From a virus (lineage: Duplodnaviria > Caudoviricetes): a stretch of DNA of 64,000 nucleotides. The notes beneath the pieces are model-generated. The model was not told the DNA's origin, made no database searches, and saw nothing but the letters and a program-made list of their open reading frames with translations. Positions 21,793 to 56,858 of this stretch are shown piece by piece (position 1 is the stretch's first letter; each line of letters begins with the position of its first letter). Where the stretch lies: positions 34,586 to 98,585 of the IMG/VR virus record IMGVR_UViG_3300014204_000137. One strand, given 5' to 3'. A program made the position numbers and the translations under genes.

Positions 21793-22007
21793 AGTTATTG
21801 ACATACAATCCAGTTACTGCTCCTGGTGAAGTATTGAAGATTGATCAAGTTCAAGTACCCATACCCATTGAAGTACCGAAAGGAGGTAGTGAAAAAAGAG
21901 AGTTAGAATGGTGGGAAGAAGTTTTATTAACGTTATTTGGAGGTCAGTACGAGCCTGAAATTAAAGAGAACCATAAGGAGTCAAACGATGCCAAGACTAG
22001 AGAATGA
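21744..22007 (+). CDS. Hypothetical acidic protein
   Basis: ORF filling the gap. Confidence 0.5.
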   Translation: MEKEEEKKTTNPQEEIKLLTYNPVTAPGEVLKIDQVQVPIPIEVPKGGSEKRELEWWEEVLLTLFGGQYEPEIKENHKESNDAKTRE

Positions 22008-22578
22008 GTGTGGCGAAGAAAAACGTCGAGGTAAAAAATTTAGATTCAACCTTAAGAAATCACGCGAGTTATATTTATTCACAGAAATATCTAACGAAAG
22101 TATACAAGAACTAGTGGAGGATATTAGAGAACTTGATGCTGTCAAAAAGAAAAGTCCAATCCATTTATTTATTCATTCACCTGGAGGAGATATGGCTTCT
22201 GGGTTTGCTTTAATAGATGTAATACAAGGATGCAAGTGTCCTGTATATACATACGCCTTAGGTGAGATTTGTTCTATGGCACCTGCAATTTTTGTAGCTG
22301 GTACGAAAAGATTCATCTCAAGACATACATACGTAATGCTTCATCCTGTCAGTTGTGGAGCGATTGATTACGTAGAGTTTGCCAAGAGTAGAATCCGTAA
22401 CGCCGAGGCAGCAGAGAAGATGTACGATTCATACTTCAAAGAGCGAACAAAACTTCCTCGAAAGTTGTATGAAAAAGCAAAGTACACAGAATTGTGGCTC
22501 ACTGCAGAAGAAGCAATAAAGTATAAAATCGCCGACGGATACTACGAGGGCAAACATGACAATCGAACAACTGCTTGA
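21988..22578 (+). CDS. clpP: ClpP-like protease
   Basis: I.LFI.SPGG, G..CSMA (Ser), MLHP (His), WLTAEEA..Y..AD; AAGGAG RBS. Confidence 0.9.
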   Translation: MPRLENECGEEKRRGKKFRFNLKKSRELYLFTEISNESIQELVEDIRELDAVKKKSPIHLFIHSPGGDMASGFALIDVIQGCKCPVYTYALGEICSMAPAIFVAGTKRFISRHTYVMLHPVSCGAIDYVEFAKSRIRNAEAAEKMYDSYFKERTKLPRKLYEKAKYTELWLTAEEAIKYKIADGYYEGKHDNRTTA

Positions 22579-22837
22579 TTCTTTAAAAGATCAAATCACG
22601 TATCTTGCCAACTCTACTAAAATACCAGGCATGGATAGAGCAGACGTTAAGCAAGAGATTATCTTAAACATTATCATCGACTTCAACAAACTTCCAGAAG
22701 CTGATAGAGACAAGTATAAAGAGGGATGGTGGTTTAAACGTATGAAGTGGTTTGTAACGAATCTAGCTATCAAAGAAAGTAAGGAGCCCGTCAACCGCTC
22801 AATACGATTGGAGAGTTTAGGAGATGCAGGAAAGTAG
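22556..22837 (+). CDS. Sigma-70 region-2-like protein (N-half of sigma)
   Basis: I..LA...IPG.D..D..QE..L, aromatic W..KR....N, ends SIRLESL like the sigma2 linker. Confidence 0.6.
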   Translation: MTIEQLLDSLKDQITYLANSTKIPGMDRADVKQEIILNIIIDFNKLPEADRDKYKEGWWFKRMKWFVTNLAIKESKEPVNRSIRLESLGDAGK

Positions 22838-23111
22838 AGAAGACTCACCAGTTAGAGATTTAACTGCTGAGGACATATTATCATGCTTATCTAAAAGTGG
22901 CGGGATACACGAGAAAATGGATCTCGAATTTATGGTAGATGAGATCAGTAAAAAATTAACTCGTAGACAAGCTATCATATTGAGATTATTACTGATAGAA
23001 GAAGTTACCCAAACTGAAGTAGGTAAGATGTTGGGATTTAGTGCTCCCACAATATGTTTAGAGATGAAGAAGATTAGGGAAATCATCACAAGTATAATAG
23101 TAAATAAATAA
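22824..23111 (+). CDS. Sigma-70 region-4 HTH protein (C-half of sigma)
   Basis: KLT.RQ..IL.L...E..TQ.EVG..LG.S...I......I. Confidence 0.8.
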   Translation: MQESREDSPVRDLTAEDILSCLSKSGGIHEKMDLEFMVDEISKKLTRRQAIILRLLLIEEVTQTEVGKMLGFSAPTICLEMKKIREIITSIIVNK

Positions 23112-23148: not shown

Positions 23149-23727
23149 ATGAGTGATTTACGAGATTTAAAAGCGATCGAAAGAAGAAAACAAGTCCGAA
23201 AATATATACGTCAAAGATTGACGCAAGTCGAGATGGCTGAGAAACTTCAAGTAGATGTTACTACTATCTCAGATGATGTAGCAGTTATTCGTAGAGAAAA
23301 TATTTATAACATACTATCTAATAAAGAATTAATAGAAAAAGACACCAAGAGTATCCTAGAGTCTATCAACCAATTAAATGAAATAGACGCAGAATGCTGG
23401 AAAATTTACTATGGCGGTTTTATTATAAAAAAGAAAGATGAAAAAGGTAACCCTATAGACGTAGAAATTCCGCTAGATCCAAAAACAAAATTAGACGCAT
23501 TATCTCACATAGAGGCTAATTTAAAACGACGTTGCGAACTCTTGAAATTAATAAGTCCTCAACAGATTACTATAGAGAAGATGGTATACGTAGAAAAAAT
23601 GATTCCTATTGTAATGCAAAAGTATACAGAAATAGTTTTAGAATACGTACCTAAAGAGAAGCAAGTAGAACTTTTAGACAAGTTAATGACAATTGATATT
23701 GAAGGAATGACCCTCGATGGAAAATAA
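23149..23727 (+). CDS. Putative terminase small subunit (N-terminal HTH)
   Basis: ERR..V.......TQ.EMA.KL.V...TIS.D HTH, then helical body; upstream of TerL. Confidence 0.65.
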   Translation: MSDLRDLKAIERRKQVRKYIRQRLTQVEMAEKLQVDVTTISDDVAVIRRENIYNILSNKELIEKDTKSILESINQLNEIDAECWKIYYGGFIIKKKDEKGNPIDVEIPLDPKTKLDALSHIEANLKRRCELLKLISPQQITIEKMVYVEKMIPIVMQKYTEIVLEYVPKEKQVELLDKLMTIDIEGMTLDGK

Positions 23728-25857: not shown

Positions 25858-27651
25858 ATGAACAAAGAAGGCAGTAATCCGAAGATAGACCATCCAACGA
25901 ATCTATTCAGAGATAGCCTACTAAAGCTACGTAACGAGCTCACAGACACCAGCCTATGGATAAGAGAAGATGAGAATACTGCGCCCGTAGCGCCTCCTAT
26001 GCCTAGTGTCTTCTTCGAGAAATGGTTAGGCACTCCTGCATCACCTATACAGGCAGAGGCAATAGATACGATATTGGTGGAAAGCGACGGGAAAGGAGAA
26101 CCGCAGTGGCGCTTCGATAAATTTAATGAAGCGTATCTACTATGGGGAGAGGGATCAGGAAAGGACTGGACCAGCAGTCGTCTAATGTGTTACGCACTAG
26201 TATGGCTAACCCATTTGAAGAACCCCCAAGCATACTTCGGCCTGACAGATCCAAAGGCTCCTATCGAAATGGTTAACGTATCCTTCGACGAGGATCAAGC
26301 TTTGTATGTATATTTTAAAGAGTTAAAGAAAGCGATGGCATCTACGATAGATCCACGAGATGGGAAGAACTGGTTTGAGAAGAGAGGTGTGAAGGTAAAG
26401 GAATCATCCAAACAGCAAGTAATTGAGTTACCCCACTTCATCACATGCTACTCACTAAACAGTAGGGAACACAAGATTGAAGGTAAAGGTACACTACTAG
26501 CAGTCTTTGACGAAATGGCAGTATTCAAAACAGACAAGGCAAAGGACCTCTTCGACAACGTTATATCAAACCAGCGCACCAGATTTGCAAGAGCGCACAA
26601 ATTTATAGCACTATCTTATAAGAGAGACGACTACGACTACATGATGGTAAGGTGGGACGAGACTAAGGACGACCCTAGCGTGTACAGAAGTCAGAAGTGT
26701 ACTTGGGAAGTAAATCCTAGAGTCAAGAGAGAAGACTTGCAGAAGAGTTATGATGAGAACCCCGAGGAAGCAGAGAGAAGGTTTGAATGTAAGGGATCAA
26801 CATCCAAGACAGGATACTTCAAGTACAAAGAGAAGATTAAGGAGAACGTCAACAAGAAGAGGATCAGCCCAGTAGTAGAGGAAACAATTCCTATTAGAGA
26901 TATCTTAGGGATCAAGTTTCATGAATGGTTTGTAGGTAATGAGAACTACTCCTACAAGGCTCATATCGATTTAGCTAAAGGTAAAGATACTCAAGGTGAG
27001 AAAGCTGACTGTGCTGGATTTGTTATGGGTCACGTAGAAGGAACAGAAGATGAAGACAAACCTAAGGTAGTAGTTGATCTGATGATGCAATTGAAGGCAC
27101 CCCCAGGTAAGGAAATCATCTTCGAAGACATTAGAGCACTCATCTATAGTTTACAGCAGCACAACAAGTTTATGATTGAGGAAGTAACTCTTGACGGATA
27201 CCAGTCAACCGACTTTATGCAAATACTTAGGAACAAAGGAATAGCAAGTGAACTACTCTCAGTAGACAAAGACGTAAGTGCATACGATACCATGAAGTCT
27301 CTCATATATAATAATCGGCTAGATTACTATTGGTACCCAGTATACATTCGTGAATGTGAAGAGTTGCAATTGATAAATGGTAAAGTAGACCACCCTGAGA
27401 TATCTAGACGGAGAGCTTTAGAAGAGAAAGACGATAAAGGAAGTAAGGACGTGAGTGATGGAGTTGCTGCCTTATGCCAAAGTCTACTAACTCGTAAGGG
27501 AGCAAACAAACCTAGAATGAAATGGATGCCTCTTGAAGGTGGTACTGGATTTGGAGGCAAACCTAACATACTTACTAGGGATCCAAATGCAAGAGAATAT
27601 GGATCAGCCTACGATACAAAAGATACAGGAGTAGAAGACGATGACGATTAG
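25858..27651 (+). CDS. Terminase large subunit
   Basis: Walker A GEGSGKD, Walker B AVFDE, TWEVNP, nuclease HIDLA, T.DGYQS, KVDHP, KD.SD. Confidence 0.92.
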   Translation: MNKEGSNPKIDHPTNLFRDSLLKLRNELTDTSLWIREDENTAPVAPPMPSVFFEKWLGTPASPIQAEAIDTILVESDGKGEPQWRFDKFNEAYLLWGEGSGKDWTSSRLMCYALVWLTHLKNPQAYFGLTDPKAPIEMVNVSFDEDQALYVYFKELKKAMASTIDPRDGKNWFEKRGVKVKESSKQQVIELPHFITCYSLNSREHKIEGKGTLLAVFDEMAVFKTDKAKDLFDNVISNQRTRFARAHKFIALSYKRDDYDYMMVRWDETKDDPSVYRSQKCTWEVNPRVKREDLQKSYDENPEEAERRFECKGSTSKTGYFKYKEKIKENVNKKRISPVVEETIPIRDILGIKFHEWFVGNENYSYKAHIDLAKGKDTQGEKADCAGFVMGHVEGTEDEDKPKVVVDLMMQLKAPPGKEIIFEDIRALIYSLQQHNKFMIEEVTLDGYQSTDFMQILRNKGIASELLSVDKDVSAYDTMKSLIYNNRLDYYWYPVYIRECEELQLINGKVDHPEISRRRALEEKDDKGSKDVSDGVAALCQSLLTRKGANKPRMKWMPLEGGTGFGGKPNILTRDPNAREYGSAYDTKDTGVEDDDD

Positions 27652-28584: not shown

Positions 28585-28630
28585 TTTTATTTTGCTCTTG
28601 ATTTTTCTGCAATTGTAACATATAATTATA
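28585..28630 (+). promoter_or_regulatory. Sigma70-type early promoter, copy 1
   Basis: T-rich UP region, TTGATT(28598)-17 nt-TATAAT(28621). Confidence 0.85.
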
Positions 28631-29977: not shown

Positions 29978-30023
29978 TTTTATTTTGCTCTTGATTTTTG
30001 TATGAATGTAACATATAATTATA
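29978..30023 (+). promoter_or_regulatory. Sigma70-type early promoter, copy 2
   Basis: TTGATT(29991)-17 nt-TATAAT(30014); same flanks as copy 1. Confidence 0.85.
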
Positions 30024-38712: not shown

Positions 38713-38753
38713 TTTAGCTCTTGATTTTTTCTCGAATGTAACATATAATTATA
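38708..38753 (+). promoter_or_regulatory. Sigma70-type early promoter, copy 3
   Basis: TTGATT(38721)-17 nt-TATAAT(38744); same flanks. Confidence 0.85.
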
Positions 38754-53127: not shown

Positions 53128-53817
53128 TGAGAAGTTTATCTGGCGACGAACCACCACAGAAGAAACCTAGACCTGATATGAGAGGTATGACTATTGCGAA
53201 CATGCACGCAGATTGCAATAAGTGTTTTGCGAAAGCTTTAGGATGCGACGCTATACCAAACACATTAGGTTGCGTTATTAATGCAAGAAGATTTAAAGCT
53301 GAAGTGGAAAAAGCTGTAGAGGAAAAAGAAGATAGCGTAGACAAAGAAATGGAGAAAGAGGAACGAAAAGCTATCCAAAGTTTATTAAATTTAGCTGCAA
53401 CTGAAGCCGAAGATAAAGCAGATGATGAGATGGAAGCTAGCGAAACTCCATCATCTCCCACAGACGACGACGAAGACGACGATTAAATAGTATCAAACTT
53501 TTAAGACTTATAAATGTTTTAATATCATAGCAGAACATATTTTGGAGGTAAATAATGGAATGCGAAAAGAAGAGAAAGTTTTTACCAAAGAATAAATGGG
53601 TAGTAAATAAGTTAAAAATATTTTTTATGGAAGCTAAAAGAGCTGAGGATGAGTATCGACATAGCCTTCGCAAAATAGAAGAAAAGATGCAGAGAGTATT
53701 CAAGATGGAAGAATTAGAGTTATTAATCAAAGATGGTCAGATAGAAGGAATCGGTACACCAAAAGATCCAAAGATTTTAAAGACAGTAACTAGAGTAGAA
53801 CTTGAAGGAGTGTAGTC

Positions 53818-56636: not shown

Positions 56637-56858
56637 TCCCGAAGTAGAAATAGATCCAGTATTCGTTGAGTGTACTGTATGTAAGGGAACTGGATTAAAA
56701 TTAATAGTAGACGAATTAGGTATAGAATCTACAACTTCCCAAACTTGTGAAGTATGTTACGGACTAGGAGAAGTAGAAGATTTATCTCAAAATTAGATAA
56801 AAAGAATTAAACATTTCCAGTAATTTCGTATTTTTATATTCAAGAGGGACAAAATAAT

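What the first reader, a model, noticed from the sequence alone, without database searches (positions are those of the whole stretch)
22556..23111. Bipartite sigma factor: region 2 and region 4 in separate overlapping ORFs
Seen: a 93-aa sigma2-like ORF and a 95-aa sigma4 HTH ORF overlap by 14 nt in different frames (+1), and the second has a GGAG upstream of its ATG. Together they are ECF-sized. They sit immediately before terS and are coupled to clpP. Established: two-subunit sigmas are rare (B. subtilis SigO-RsoA). Inference: a split late sigma, or a programmed +1 frameshift controlling late-gene timing.
Basis: partly seen in the sequence, partly recalled or inferred. Interest (0 to 1): 0.7.

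Follow-up and report, generated by a model that had tools for sequence, protein, structure and literature searches.

The report
Phage sigma factor split into two genes
An uncultured phage encodes the two halves of a small ECF-like sigma factor (the promoter-melting half and the promoter-binding half) as two separate overlapping genes, and about 20 related phage loci keep the same split, so it is a real two-subunit sigma and not a sequencing error or a frameshift trick.

Summary
ORF1 (22556-22837, 93 aa) and ORF2 (22824-23111, 95 aa) overlap by 14 nt, with ORF2 in the +1 frame. ORF2 has its own ATG and a GGAGAG 8 nt upstream.

ORF2 is a sigma region-4 domain: 16 of 17 family members hit TIGR02937, and the nine best fold matches are all sigma-4 domains (Z up to 9.4). 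ORF1 has no significant sequence hit of its own. Its family of about 26 proteins hits sigma models over their sigma-2 half (10 of 27 scanned). A confident AlphaFold model (pLDDT 88.5) matches mostly sigma domain 2.

The split is conserved. Sixteen distinct related loci keep two genes, with ORF2 in the +1 frame (8 loci), +2 (5) or in frame (3). All three stop codons are used, and each ORF2 has its own start. One homolog is fused. This rejects an assembly indel and a conserved programmed frameshift.

It is a new family of two-subunit sigma, analogous to B. subtilis SigO-RsoA, T4 gp55/gp33, SPO1 gp33/34 and Tn916 Sig7-8. The "late" timing, RNA polymerase binding and target promoter are inferred, not shown. 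The kind is known; this clean collinear sigma-2 | sigma-4 variant is new.

The parts
21937..22578 (+). ClpP-family protease gene. Its last 23 nt overlap the start of ORF1, so it is probably co-transcribed and translationally chained with the pair. This neighbour is not conserved in all relatives.
   Evidence: PF00574 E 2.6e-26 and phrog_94 E 5.7e-31. A ClpP gene also lies upstream in L005/L006 but not in L001.
22556..22837 (+). ORF1, 93 aa: stand-alone sigma domain-2-like subunit. It carries a region 2.2-like D30-x-x-Q33-E34 motif and a region 2.3-like G57-W58-W59-F60...W65 motif. Its conserved C-terminal tail contains P78.
   Evidence: It belongs to a family of about 26 proteins, nearly all 68-143 aa. 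AF2 gives pLDDT 88.5 with five helices. About 18 of the top 21 VIA-align cluster representatives are sigma-2 domains, Z 6.2-7.9. 10 of 27 members hit TIGR02937 on positions 3-76 of 165, and 4 of 27 hit the RsoA model. 4 of 27 hit PF04542. hhalign to RpoE places D-x-x-Q-E on DVVQEAF and GWWF-R on TWLYR (P 0.028).
22810..22815 (+). Shine-Dalgarno-like GGAGAG, 8 nt upstream of the ORF2 ATG and inside the ORF1 coding sequence.
   Evidence: Read directly from the sequence. Purine-rich SD-like stretches precede the ORF2 start in most relatives.
22824..22837 (+). 14-nt overlap of the ORF1 stop region and the ORF2 start (ATG...TAG), giving translational coupling between the two genes.
   Evidence: The same 14-nt geometry, with different nucleotides, is seen in L003 and L013; other relatives have other geometries.
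22824..23111 (+). ORF2, 95 aa: stand-alone sigma domain-4 subunit (region 4.1 helix plus region 4.2 HTH, residues about 27-94) with a poorly ordered N-terminal about 25 aa.
   Evidence: PF04545 E 5.2e-5, TIGR02937 E 7.3e-6 on positions 110-161 of 165, phrog_351 E 8e-8. 16 of 17 family members hit TIGR02937, best 4.9e-9. hhalign to RpoE 144-183 gives P 3.4e-4. AF2 gives pLDDT 79.8. The top nine fold hits are all sigma-4: SigB Z 9.4 rmsd 2.3 over 69, SigF sigma-4 Z 9.2 rmsd 1.4 over 57. Foldseek's top hits are sigma factors with prob about 1.0.
23149..23727 (+). Conserved downstream neighbour, 192 aa, with an N-terminal HTH. It may be the small terminase subunit or a further regulator. It follows the pair in most relatives of the window's clade.
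   Evidence: Weak HTH hits and phrog_309 terS E 0.015. Homologs follow the pair in L001, L003, L005, L010, L013, L014, L016 and L019. The atlas's nearest clusters are viral, one of them named putative TerS.

Best explanation
ORF1 and ORF2 are the two subunits of a phage-encoded, ECF-like sigma factor that has been split at the sigma-2/sigma-4 linker into two separately translated polypeptides. Shown: ORF1 has a sigma domain-2 fold with the conserved region 2.2-like D-x-x-Q-E and region 2.3-like W-W-F motifs. ORF2 has a sigma domain-4 fold with an HTH. The genes are adjacent, collinear with a normal ECF sigma, and coupled by a 14-nt overlap with an internal Shine-Dalgarno sequence. The two-gene state is conserved across a whole family of environmental phages, and one homolog carries both parts fused. 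Inferred: ORF1 binds the beta-prime clamp helices of the host RNA polymerase and recognises and melts the -10 element. ORF2 binds the beta flap and reads a -35 element. The two assemble non-covalently on the core enzyme, with coupling giving about 1:1 synthesis, to redirect the host polymerase to a class of phage promoters. Because the phage also has a canonical 204-aa sigma downstream of a host-type early promoter (about 620 nt away), a cascade of host sigma, then single-chain phage sigma, then split sigma (as in SPO1) is plausible but not shown.
For: ORFs and overlap.

ORF2 as sigma-4.

ORF1 as sigma-2: a confident model. About 18 of the 21 best cluster representatives out of 48,161 are sigma domain 2, aligned to the right segment (for example sigma70 375-446, Taq sigmaA 197-271). 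Foldseek's top list is also dominated by sigma-2. 10 of 27 family members hit TIGR02937 over its sigma-2 half, 8 of 27 hit a sigma-70 model, 4 of 27 hit RsoA and 4 of 27 hit PF04542.

Family: 27 HMMER hits, of which 25 are 68-143 aa, one is a 192-aa fusion with a sigma-4-like HTH tail, and one is spurious.

Conserved split: 16 distinct loci have both genes, with varied junctions. Distant members are also followed by small Sigma70_r4_2 or other HTH genes. The tree shows all three frame relations inside one clade of 70-91% identity.

No stop-codon recoding: TAA 110, TGA 46, TAG 19.

Precedents for two-subunit sigmas.
Against: No experiment or co-fold shows that either protein binds RNA polymerase or that they bind each other. 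Window ORF1 has no significant sequence hit of its own. Each structural score is only moderate (Z at most 7.9, Foldseek E at least 1), and small helical folds give middling Z often. All profile hits are below the curated cut-offs. By sequence profile alone, the ORF2 family also resembles MarR- and LuxR-type HTHs. No cognate promoter was identified: the candidate motif GTTTTTATAT has only 3 exact copies and is not enriched in the related phage. The host is unknown. A low level of frameshifted fusion product in this particular phage cannot be excluded from sequence alone.
Confidence: 0.8

Rival explanations
1. The two proteins are functionally independent. ORF1 is a sigma-2-like RNA-polymerase-binding protein, for example a competitor or inhibitor of the host sigma or an appropriator. 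ORF2 is an ordinary HTH transcription regulator. They are neighbours but do not form one sigma.
For: The ORF2 family profile scores MarR- and LuxR-type regulators as well as or better than sigma-4 in the PDB sequence search. The sigma identity of ORF1 rests on sub-threshold hits and moderate fold scores. Phages do encode small RNA-polymerase binders.
Against: A natural fusion of the two parts exists, collinear with an ECF sigma. The pair is strictly co-conserved and translationally coupled in every locus with enough sequence. ORF1 retains the invariant D-x-x-Q-E and W-W-F positions of a working sigma-2. By fold, ORF2 includes the region 4.1 helix, and sigma-4 domains rank ahead of LuxR-type domains.
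Confidence: 0.12
2. A programmed +1 ribosomal frameshift in the 14-nt overlap makes a single fused ECF-like sigma, and the frameshift efficiency sets late-gene timing.
For: In the window ORF2 is in the +1 frame. +1 is the commonest relation in the family: 8 of 16 loci with DNA, plus the distant members. An SD-like GGAG lies just upstream, as in prfB-type shifts.
Against: Close relatives have ORF2 in +2 (5 loci) or in frame directly after a stop (3 loci), or separated by 2-4 nt, or by 137 nt with an extra ORF. A +1 shift could not fuse any of these. Within one clade of 70-91% identity, all three frame relations occur. No slippery motif is shared among the three loci with the same 14-nt geometry. 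Every ORF2 has its own ATG or GTG. The last ORF1 codons (AAG TAG A) give no good +1 re-pairing.
Confidence: 0.03
3. A sequencing or assembly indel broke a normal single-chain sigma gene in this record.
For: A single-base change near 22824-22837 would fuse the frames. The record is a metagenome-derived virus contig, and reads could not be inspected.
Against: Sixteen distinct loci from independent assemblies and samples are split at the same place, with different junction geometries and all three stop codons. 25 of 27 HMMER hits are stand-alone short proteins. ORF2 starts with a proper ATG preceded by an SD.
Confidence: 0.02

Closest known systems
Bacillus subtilis SigO-RsoA (YvrI-YvrHa) two-subunit sigma factor
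   Same: Sigma-2 and sigma-4 functions lie on two separate polypeptides encoded by neighbouring genes (PMC7826278 and bioRxiv 10.64898/2026.10.01.756105). Four of 27 ORF1-family members give weak hits to the NCBIfam RsoA model over its positions 11-54 of 77.
   Different: The hits are far below the model's cut-off (20 bits at best against 100), so ORF1 is not an RsoA equivalog. Here the gene order is sigma-2 then sigma-4, collinear with a fused ECF sigma, and each half is a clean single domain. From my own knowledge, not checked here: the B. subtilis order is sigO then rsoA, and SigO keeps an N-terminal part besides region 4. This system is phage-borne, not chromosomal.
Phage T4 late sigma gp55 with gp33 (and the gp45 clamp)
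   Same: A phage splits sigma functions between a sigma-2-like protein and a second protein that takes the sigma-4 place on the beta flap. The T4 late transcription complex 7d7d chain F appears among ORF1's fold matches (Z 5.5).
   Different: ORF1 is structurally closer to cellular ECF and group 1-3 sigma-2 domains (Z 7-8) than to the T4 chain. ORF2 is a true sigma-4 HTH. From my own knowledge: gp33 is not a DNA-binding sigma-4 homolog, T4 late promoters have no -35 element, and T4 genes 55 and 33 are unlinked. Here the genes overlap. No clamp dependence is indicated.
Bacillus phage SPO1 gp33-gp34 late sigma, after gp28
   Same: Two phage proteins together direct late transcription. A phage sigma cascade is plausible here too, because this phage also encodes a canonical 204-aa sigma.
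   Different: No sequence or fold comparison with gp33/gp34 was made here. The timing of the pair in this phage is unknown.
Tn916 Sig7-Sig8 split sigma (2026 preprint)
   Same: A mobile element encodes a two-subunit sigma, with one region-4 protein and one RsoA-like protein, shown to associate with RNA polymerase.
   Different: It belongs to a conjugative element of Gram-positive bacteria, not a phage. Homology to the present family was not tested.
Single-chain phage ECF-like sigma factors (for example phiEco32 gp36, PDB 9m7y chain F)
   Same: Small sigma-2 plus sigma-4 architecture used by phages to redirect the host polymerase. 9m7y_F matches both the ORF1 model (Z 5.9) and the ORF2 model (Z 7.4). 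The fused homolog P0028 has this architecture.
   Different: Those are one polypeptide. Here the linker is cut and each half has its own start and stop.

Membership tests
Sigma-70 family, group 4 (ECF-like) sigma factor | Sigma-2 domain (regions 2.1-2.4 helical fold) | tested here: met
   The AF2 model has pLDDT 88.5. About 18 of the top 21 VIA-align representatives are sigma-2 domains, Z 6.2-7.9, aligned to the region-2 segment. Foldseek's list is dominated by sigma-2, but with E at least 1. 10 of 27 family members hit TIGR02937 on positions 3-76 of 165. Each score is moderate on its own; the specificity is what carries the case.
Sigma-70 family, group 4 (ECF-like) sigma factor | Region 2.2 core-binding motif (D-x-x-Q-E) and region 2.3 aromatic residues | tested here: met
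   D30, Q33, W59 and W65 are invariant and F60 nearly so across 27 sequences. hhalign puts them on RpoE DVVQEAF and TWLYR (P 0.028). The same D-x-x-Q-E alignment is obtained with the phage's own sigma.
Sigma-70 family, group 4 (ECF-like) sigma factor | Sigma-4 domain with region 4.2 HTH | tested here: met
   16 of 17 ORF2-family members hit TIGR02937 (best 4.9e-9); window ORF2 scores 7.3e-6 on positions 110-161 of 165. The top nine fold hits are sigma-4, Z 8.5-9.4. hhalign to RpoE 144-183 gives P 3.4e-4.
Sigma-70 family, group 4 (ECF-like) sigma factor | Sigma-2 and sigma-4 on one polypeptide | tested here: not met
   Two ORFs with separate starts and stops are found in the window and in 15 other distinct loci. 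Only 1 of about 26 family members is fused.
Sigma-70 family, group 4 (ECF-like) sigma factor | Score above curated family thresholds (Pfam PF04542/PF04545, NCBIfam TIGR02937) | tested here: not met
   ORF2 scores 23.1 bits on PF04545 against 24.1, and 25.7 on TIGR02937 against 42.9. ORF1 has no hit.
Sigma-70 family, group 4 (ECF-like) sigma factor | Binds core RNA polymerase and directs promoter-specific initiation | not testable with these tools
   This needs biochemistry or a multimer structure prediction; none was available.
SigO-RsoA type two-subunit sigma | Small subunit belongs to the RsoA family (NF041489) | tested here: not met
   4 of 27 members give weak hits, best E 4.9e-4 and 20.1 bits against a cut-off of 100. 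Window ORF1 gives none.
SigO-RsoA type two-subunit sigma | Sigma-2 and sigma-4 functions on two separately encoded, co-conserved polypeptides | tested here: met
   See the junction table of 16 loci and the distant members.
SigO-RsoA type two-subunit sigma | Both subunits required for open-complex formation | not testable with these tools
   This needs in vitro transcription.
T4 gp55/gp33 type late sigma | gp55-like sigma-2 protein | tested here: inconclusive
   The T4 late transcription complex (7d7d_F) is matched at Z 5.5, rmsd 7.7, below many cellular sigma-2 domains. No sequence comparison was made.
T4 gp55/gp33 type late sigma | Partner is a gp33-like flap binder without a DNA-binding HTH | tested here: inconclusive
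   ORF2 models as a sigma-4 HTH. No T4 gp33 entry appears among the 50 rows shown, which does not exclude similarity.
Programmed +1 ribosomal frameshift gene | Frame relation and slippery site conserved among homologs, with no independent start for the downstream frame | tested here: not met
   The frame relation is +1 in 8 loci, +2 in 5 and in frame in 3. There are gaps of 0-137 nt and overlaps of 1-14 nt, every ORF2 has its own ATG or GTG, and no motif is shared.

The most novel reading that the evidence does not exclude
This is a natural, clean fission of an ECF-type sigma exactly at its linker, maintained by selection across a clade of environmental phages. The junction has been remodelled at least half a dozen times without re-fusing. 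The separation itself may be functional. It could let the sigma-2 subunit pair with alternative sigma-4-type partners: the conserved 192-aa HTH protein just downstream weakly matches the ORF2 profile. Or it could let the two halves be regulated or degraded independently (protease genes flank the pair) to time a switch in a host sigma, phage sigma, split sigma cascade.
Probability: 0.2. Interest if true: 0.75.

Novelty: new variant of a known kind. Interest (0 to 1): 0.55.

Why it matters
Two-subunit sigma factors are known from only a handful of systems, and the 2021 ECF reclassification states that split-domain ECFs had not been surveyed (PMC7826278). This finding defines a family of about 26 proteins, plus their partner family, in uncultured tailed phages. 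In it a minimal sigma is cut cleanly into a sigma-2 and a sigma-4 polypeptide with collinear, translationally coupled genes, and one fused relative serves as a natural control. That gives a simple system for three questions: what the sigma-2/sigma-4 linker contributes, why a split is maintained, and how phages build sigma cascades. It also gives annotators a way to name an ORF family that currently has no Pfam or PHROG assignment. Naturally split sigmas are also useful parts for synthetic AND-gate circuits (one search lists such uses of SigO-RsoA).

Tried and rejected
- Word-indexed homolog searches found only ORF1 itself and no longer relatives of ORF2.
- tblastn of ORF1 against 50,697 phage records gave no match.
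- phmmer of ORF1, and the ORF1 family profile, against PDB sequences found no sigma.
- The BFVD fold search gave no significant match.
- The genome-contig scan found no bacterial or prophage copy, so there is no host information.
- The search for related loci with the full 27-sequence alignment failed for lack of a conserved stretch; a six-sequence alignment worked.
- P0012 (1700 aa) is a repeat protein and a spurious hit.
- hhalign of both families against the phage's own divergent 204-aa sigma was weak (E 0.011 and 0.24).
- The RpoE homolog search returned only near-identical sequences, which were no use for a diverse sigma profile.
- The generic promoter and terminator scan around the pair found fewer sites than shuffled sequence.
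- One motif script timed out.
- The candidate late-promoter motif GTTTTTATAT is not enriched in the related phage, and the early-promoter pattern is absent from it. Neither could be tied to the split sigma.
- Stop-codon recoding was considered because ORF1 ends in TAG, and rejected: all three stops are in common use, and reading through TAG in the ORF1 frame reaches another TAG after 6 codons and a TGA after 11, still out of frame with ORF2.

Full report
**1. The observation**

The window holds ORF1 at 22556..22837 (93 aa, stop TAG) and ORF2 at 22824..23111 (95 aa) on the + strand. They overlap by 14 nt, and ORF2 is in the +1 frame. A GGAGAG lies 8 nt before the ORF2 ATG, and a second GGAG abuts it. 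ORF1's ATG lies 23 nt inside the end of a ClpP-family ORF (21937..22578; PF00574, E 2.6e-26). After ORF2 comes a 37-nt gap and then a 192-aa HTH protein (23149..23727). TerL is at 25858..27651.

The window is bases 34586-98585 of a 98,585-bp IMG/VR virus record with 72% estimated completeness and 36% G+C. Upstream genes encode DNA polymerase, a UvsX-like recombinase, SbcCD and an exonuclease. Portal and tail-fibre genes lie at 56.9-61 kb.

**2. What the two ORFs are**

ORF2 gives consistent sub-threshold hits to the C-terminal part of sigma models:
- PF04545, E 5.2e-5 (23.1 bits against a cut-off of 24.1).
- TIGR02937, E 7.3e-6 on positions 110-161 of 165.
- phrog_351 'RNA polymerase sigma factor', E 8e-8.

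In a 17-member family alignment (A4), 16 members hit TIGR02937, best E 4.9e-9. The AF2 model has mean pLDDT 79.8, with residues 31-95 above 86. Its nine best VIA-align matches are all sigma-4 domains, including SigB 188-256 (Z 9.4, rmsd 2.3 over 69) and SigF sigma-4 (Z 9.2, rmsd 1.4 over 57). LuxR-type domains begin only at rank 10. Foldseek's top list is also dominated by sigma factors, though its best E is 0.012. By sequence profile alone the family also resembles MarR- and LuxR-type HTHs. The sigma-4 assignment therefore rests on the combination of fold, the region 4.1 helix, the family hits and the context.

ORF1 has no significant hit of its own in Pfam, PHROGs, NCBIfam or PDB sequences. 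An exhaustive HMMER search of 1.84 billion representatives found 27 proteins at E up to 1e-3. Of these, 25 are 68-143 aa, one is 192 aa (P0028), and one is a spurious hit to a 1700-aa repeat protein. The alignment (A1) has invariant D30, Q33, W59 and W65, and nearly invariant F60 and P78.

Scanned one by one:
- 10 of 27 members hit TIGR02937, on positions 3-76 of 165, which is the sigma-2 half.
- 8 hit a sigma-70 model.
- 4 hit the RsoA model NF041489.
- 4 hit PF04542, the only Pfam family matched by more than two members.

The AF2 model of ORF1 is confident (pLDDT 88.5, five helices). Out of 48,161 cluster representatives, about 18 of the 21 best matches are sigma domain 2. Examples are sigma70 375-446 (Z 7.4), sigmaH (7.3), RpoE (7.2), SigB (7.2), AlgU, RpoS, SigR and sigmaE region 2. 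Each Z is moderate, and Foldseek E-values are 1 or more, so no single match is decisive. The near-exclusive enrichment for one rare domain, aligned to the correct segment, is what makes the case. hhalign against E. coli RpoE places D-x-x-Q-E on DVVQEAF (region 2.2) and GWWF-R on TWLYR (region 2.3/2.4), with P 0.028. The ORF2 family aligns to RpoE 144-183 with P 3.4e-4.

**3. The split is real and conserved**

P0028 (L002) is a single 192-aa ORF. Its N-terminal part aligns with the ORF1 family and its C-terminal part with the ORF2 family, collinear with an ECF sigma. In every other locus the two parts are separate genes.

I collected loci from IMG/VR, JGI metagenomes and other assemblies. I located both genes with family HMMs and tabulated the junctions:

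| ORF2 frame relative to ORF1 | Loci and geometry |
|---|---|
| +1 (8 loci) | window, L003, L013: 14-nt overlap; L016: 11-nt overlap; L010, L018, L022: 8-nt overlap; L007: 4-nt gap |
| +2 (5 loci) | L005: ATGA; L014, L020: TAATG; L023: 2-nt gap; L008: 137-nt gap holding a 42-aa ORF |
| same frame (3 loci) | L001, L019: stop directly followed by ATG; L017: 3-nt gap |

ORF1 stops are TAA, TAG and TGA. Every ORF2 has its own ATG (one has GTG), usually preceded by a purine-rich stretch.

On a tree of the concatenated proteins, one clade of 70-91% identity (L016, L017, L019, L020) contains all three frame relations. The window's clade contains +1 and +2 forms. The junction has therefore been rebuilt repeatedly while the two-gene state was kept.

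More distant family members (P0007, P0011, P0016, P0026) are also followed by a 66-93-aa gene with Sigma70_r4_2 or other HTH hits. P0020's contig ends just after a downstream gene begins.

These results reject an assembly indel and a conserved programmed frameshift. Stop-codon recoding is also excluded, because all three stops are in common use (TAA 110, TGA 46, TAG 19).

**4. How it most likely works**

Shown:
- two domain identities;
- collinear adjacent genes with translational coupling;
- strict co-conservation;
- a natural fusion.

Inferred from the established roles of sigma-2 and sigma-4, and from the known two-subunit sigmas: ORF1 binds the beta-prime clamp helices and handles the -10 element and DNA melting. 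ORF2 binds the beta flap and a -35 element. Together they act as one sigma on the host core enzyme. The conserved ORF1 tail (P78 and following) and the disordered ORF2 N-terminus would stand in for the cut linker.

Timing is not shown. The phage has seven copies of a textbook host-type promoter: an A/T-rich tract, cTTGATT, 17 nt, then TATAAT. One copy lies about 620 nt upstream of a canonical 204-aa sigma gene just outside the window. None lies near the split pair. A three-step cascade, as in SPO1, is therefore an attractive but untested idea.

A second motif, GTTTTTATAT, occurs three times exactly against about 0.3 expected. All three copies are intergenic, 14-46 nt before structural-module genes, and one-mismatch variants lie before the portal gene and one other gene. 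The motif is not enriched in the related phage, so I treat it only as a lead.

**5. Comparison with what is known**

Split sigmas are established: T4 gp55/gp33, SPO1 gp33/gp34, B. subtilis SigO-RsoA, Tn916 Sig7-8, and Francisella MtvS1/2 as a proposal. The present family is not a member of the RsoA equivalog (20 bits against a cut-off of 100). It is structurally nearer to cellular sigma-2 domains than to the T4 late complex chain (Z 5.5). Its partner is a true sigma-4 HTH.

What differs from the known cases is the clean, collinear sigma-2 | sigma-4 cut of an ECF-sized protein, the tight coupling of the genes, and the existence of a fused relative. No paper in the held library describes such a phage family. 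The ECF reclassification paper notes that split ECFs remain unsurveyed.

**6. Verdict**

- The 'bipartite sigma' reading is supported.
- The frameshift and indel alternatives are rejected.
- The 'late' and 'terS' labels are unproven.

It is a new variant of a known kind and of moderate interest.

Noticed in passing
window 28598-28626, 29991-30019, 38721-38749 (plus genome 27337, 28509, 29018 and 30505, upstream of the window): Seven copies of a sharply conserved promoter-like element: an A/T-rich UP-like tract, cTTGATT, a 17-nt spacer, then TATAAT followed by TATA. This is a textbook host sigma70/sigmaA-type promoter, presumably for early genes. The pattern is absent from the related 90-kb phage G001.
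   Followed up: partly
G000:C1:31155-31769 (L012:1411-2025), 3.4 kb before the window start: The same phage encodes a canonical single-chain 204-aa sigma (PF04542, 25.5 bits by the genome search), about 620 nt downstream of one of the early-type promoters. The phage therefore has two sigma systems. The homolog in the related phage (L031:1492-1986) is only 164 aa, with a shortened C-terminus that may lack a full sigma-4.
   Followed up: partly
window 56830-56839 and 53516-53525; genome 8443, 11527 and 26437 (outside the window): The motif GTTTTTATAT occurs 3 times exactly against about 0.3 expected, plus 2 one-mismatch copies. All of these are intergenic, 14-46 nt before structural-module genes, including the portal gene. 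It is a candidate late-promoter element but is not enriched in the related phage.
   Followed up: partly
L008:644-772 and L009:805-933: In one lineage a 42-aa ORF sits between the sigma-2-like and sigma-4-like genes (137-nt spacing). This is the only case where the pair is not directly abutting or overlapping.
   Followed up: no
contexts of P0007, P0011 and P0016 (no DNA held); window 21937-22578: Protease genes flank the pair in both subclades. A trypsin-like protease immediately follows the sigma-4 gene in the distant members, and a ClpP-like gene immediately precedes the sigma-2 gene in the window, L005 and L006. A terminase gene lies a few genes downstream in both.
   Followed up: no
window 23149-23727 and homologs (for example L001:5623-6135): The conserved 192-aa neighbour has an N-terminal HTH that weakly matches the ORF2 (sigma-4) family profile in many loci (E 1e-4 to 1e-3).
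   Followed up: partly
L002:2832-3410 (P0028): This is the only fused family member. On the tree it groups with the split locus L010 (support 95/98) on a very long branch. The fusion may be secondary, but the rooting is uncertain.
   Followed up: partly
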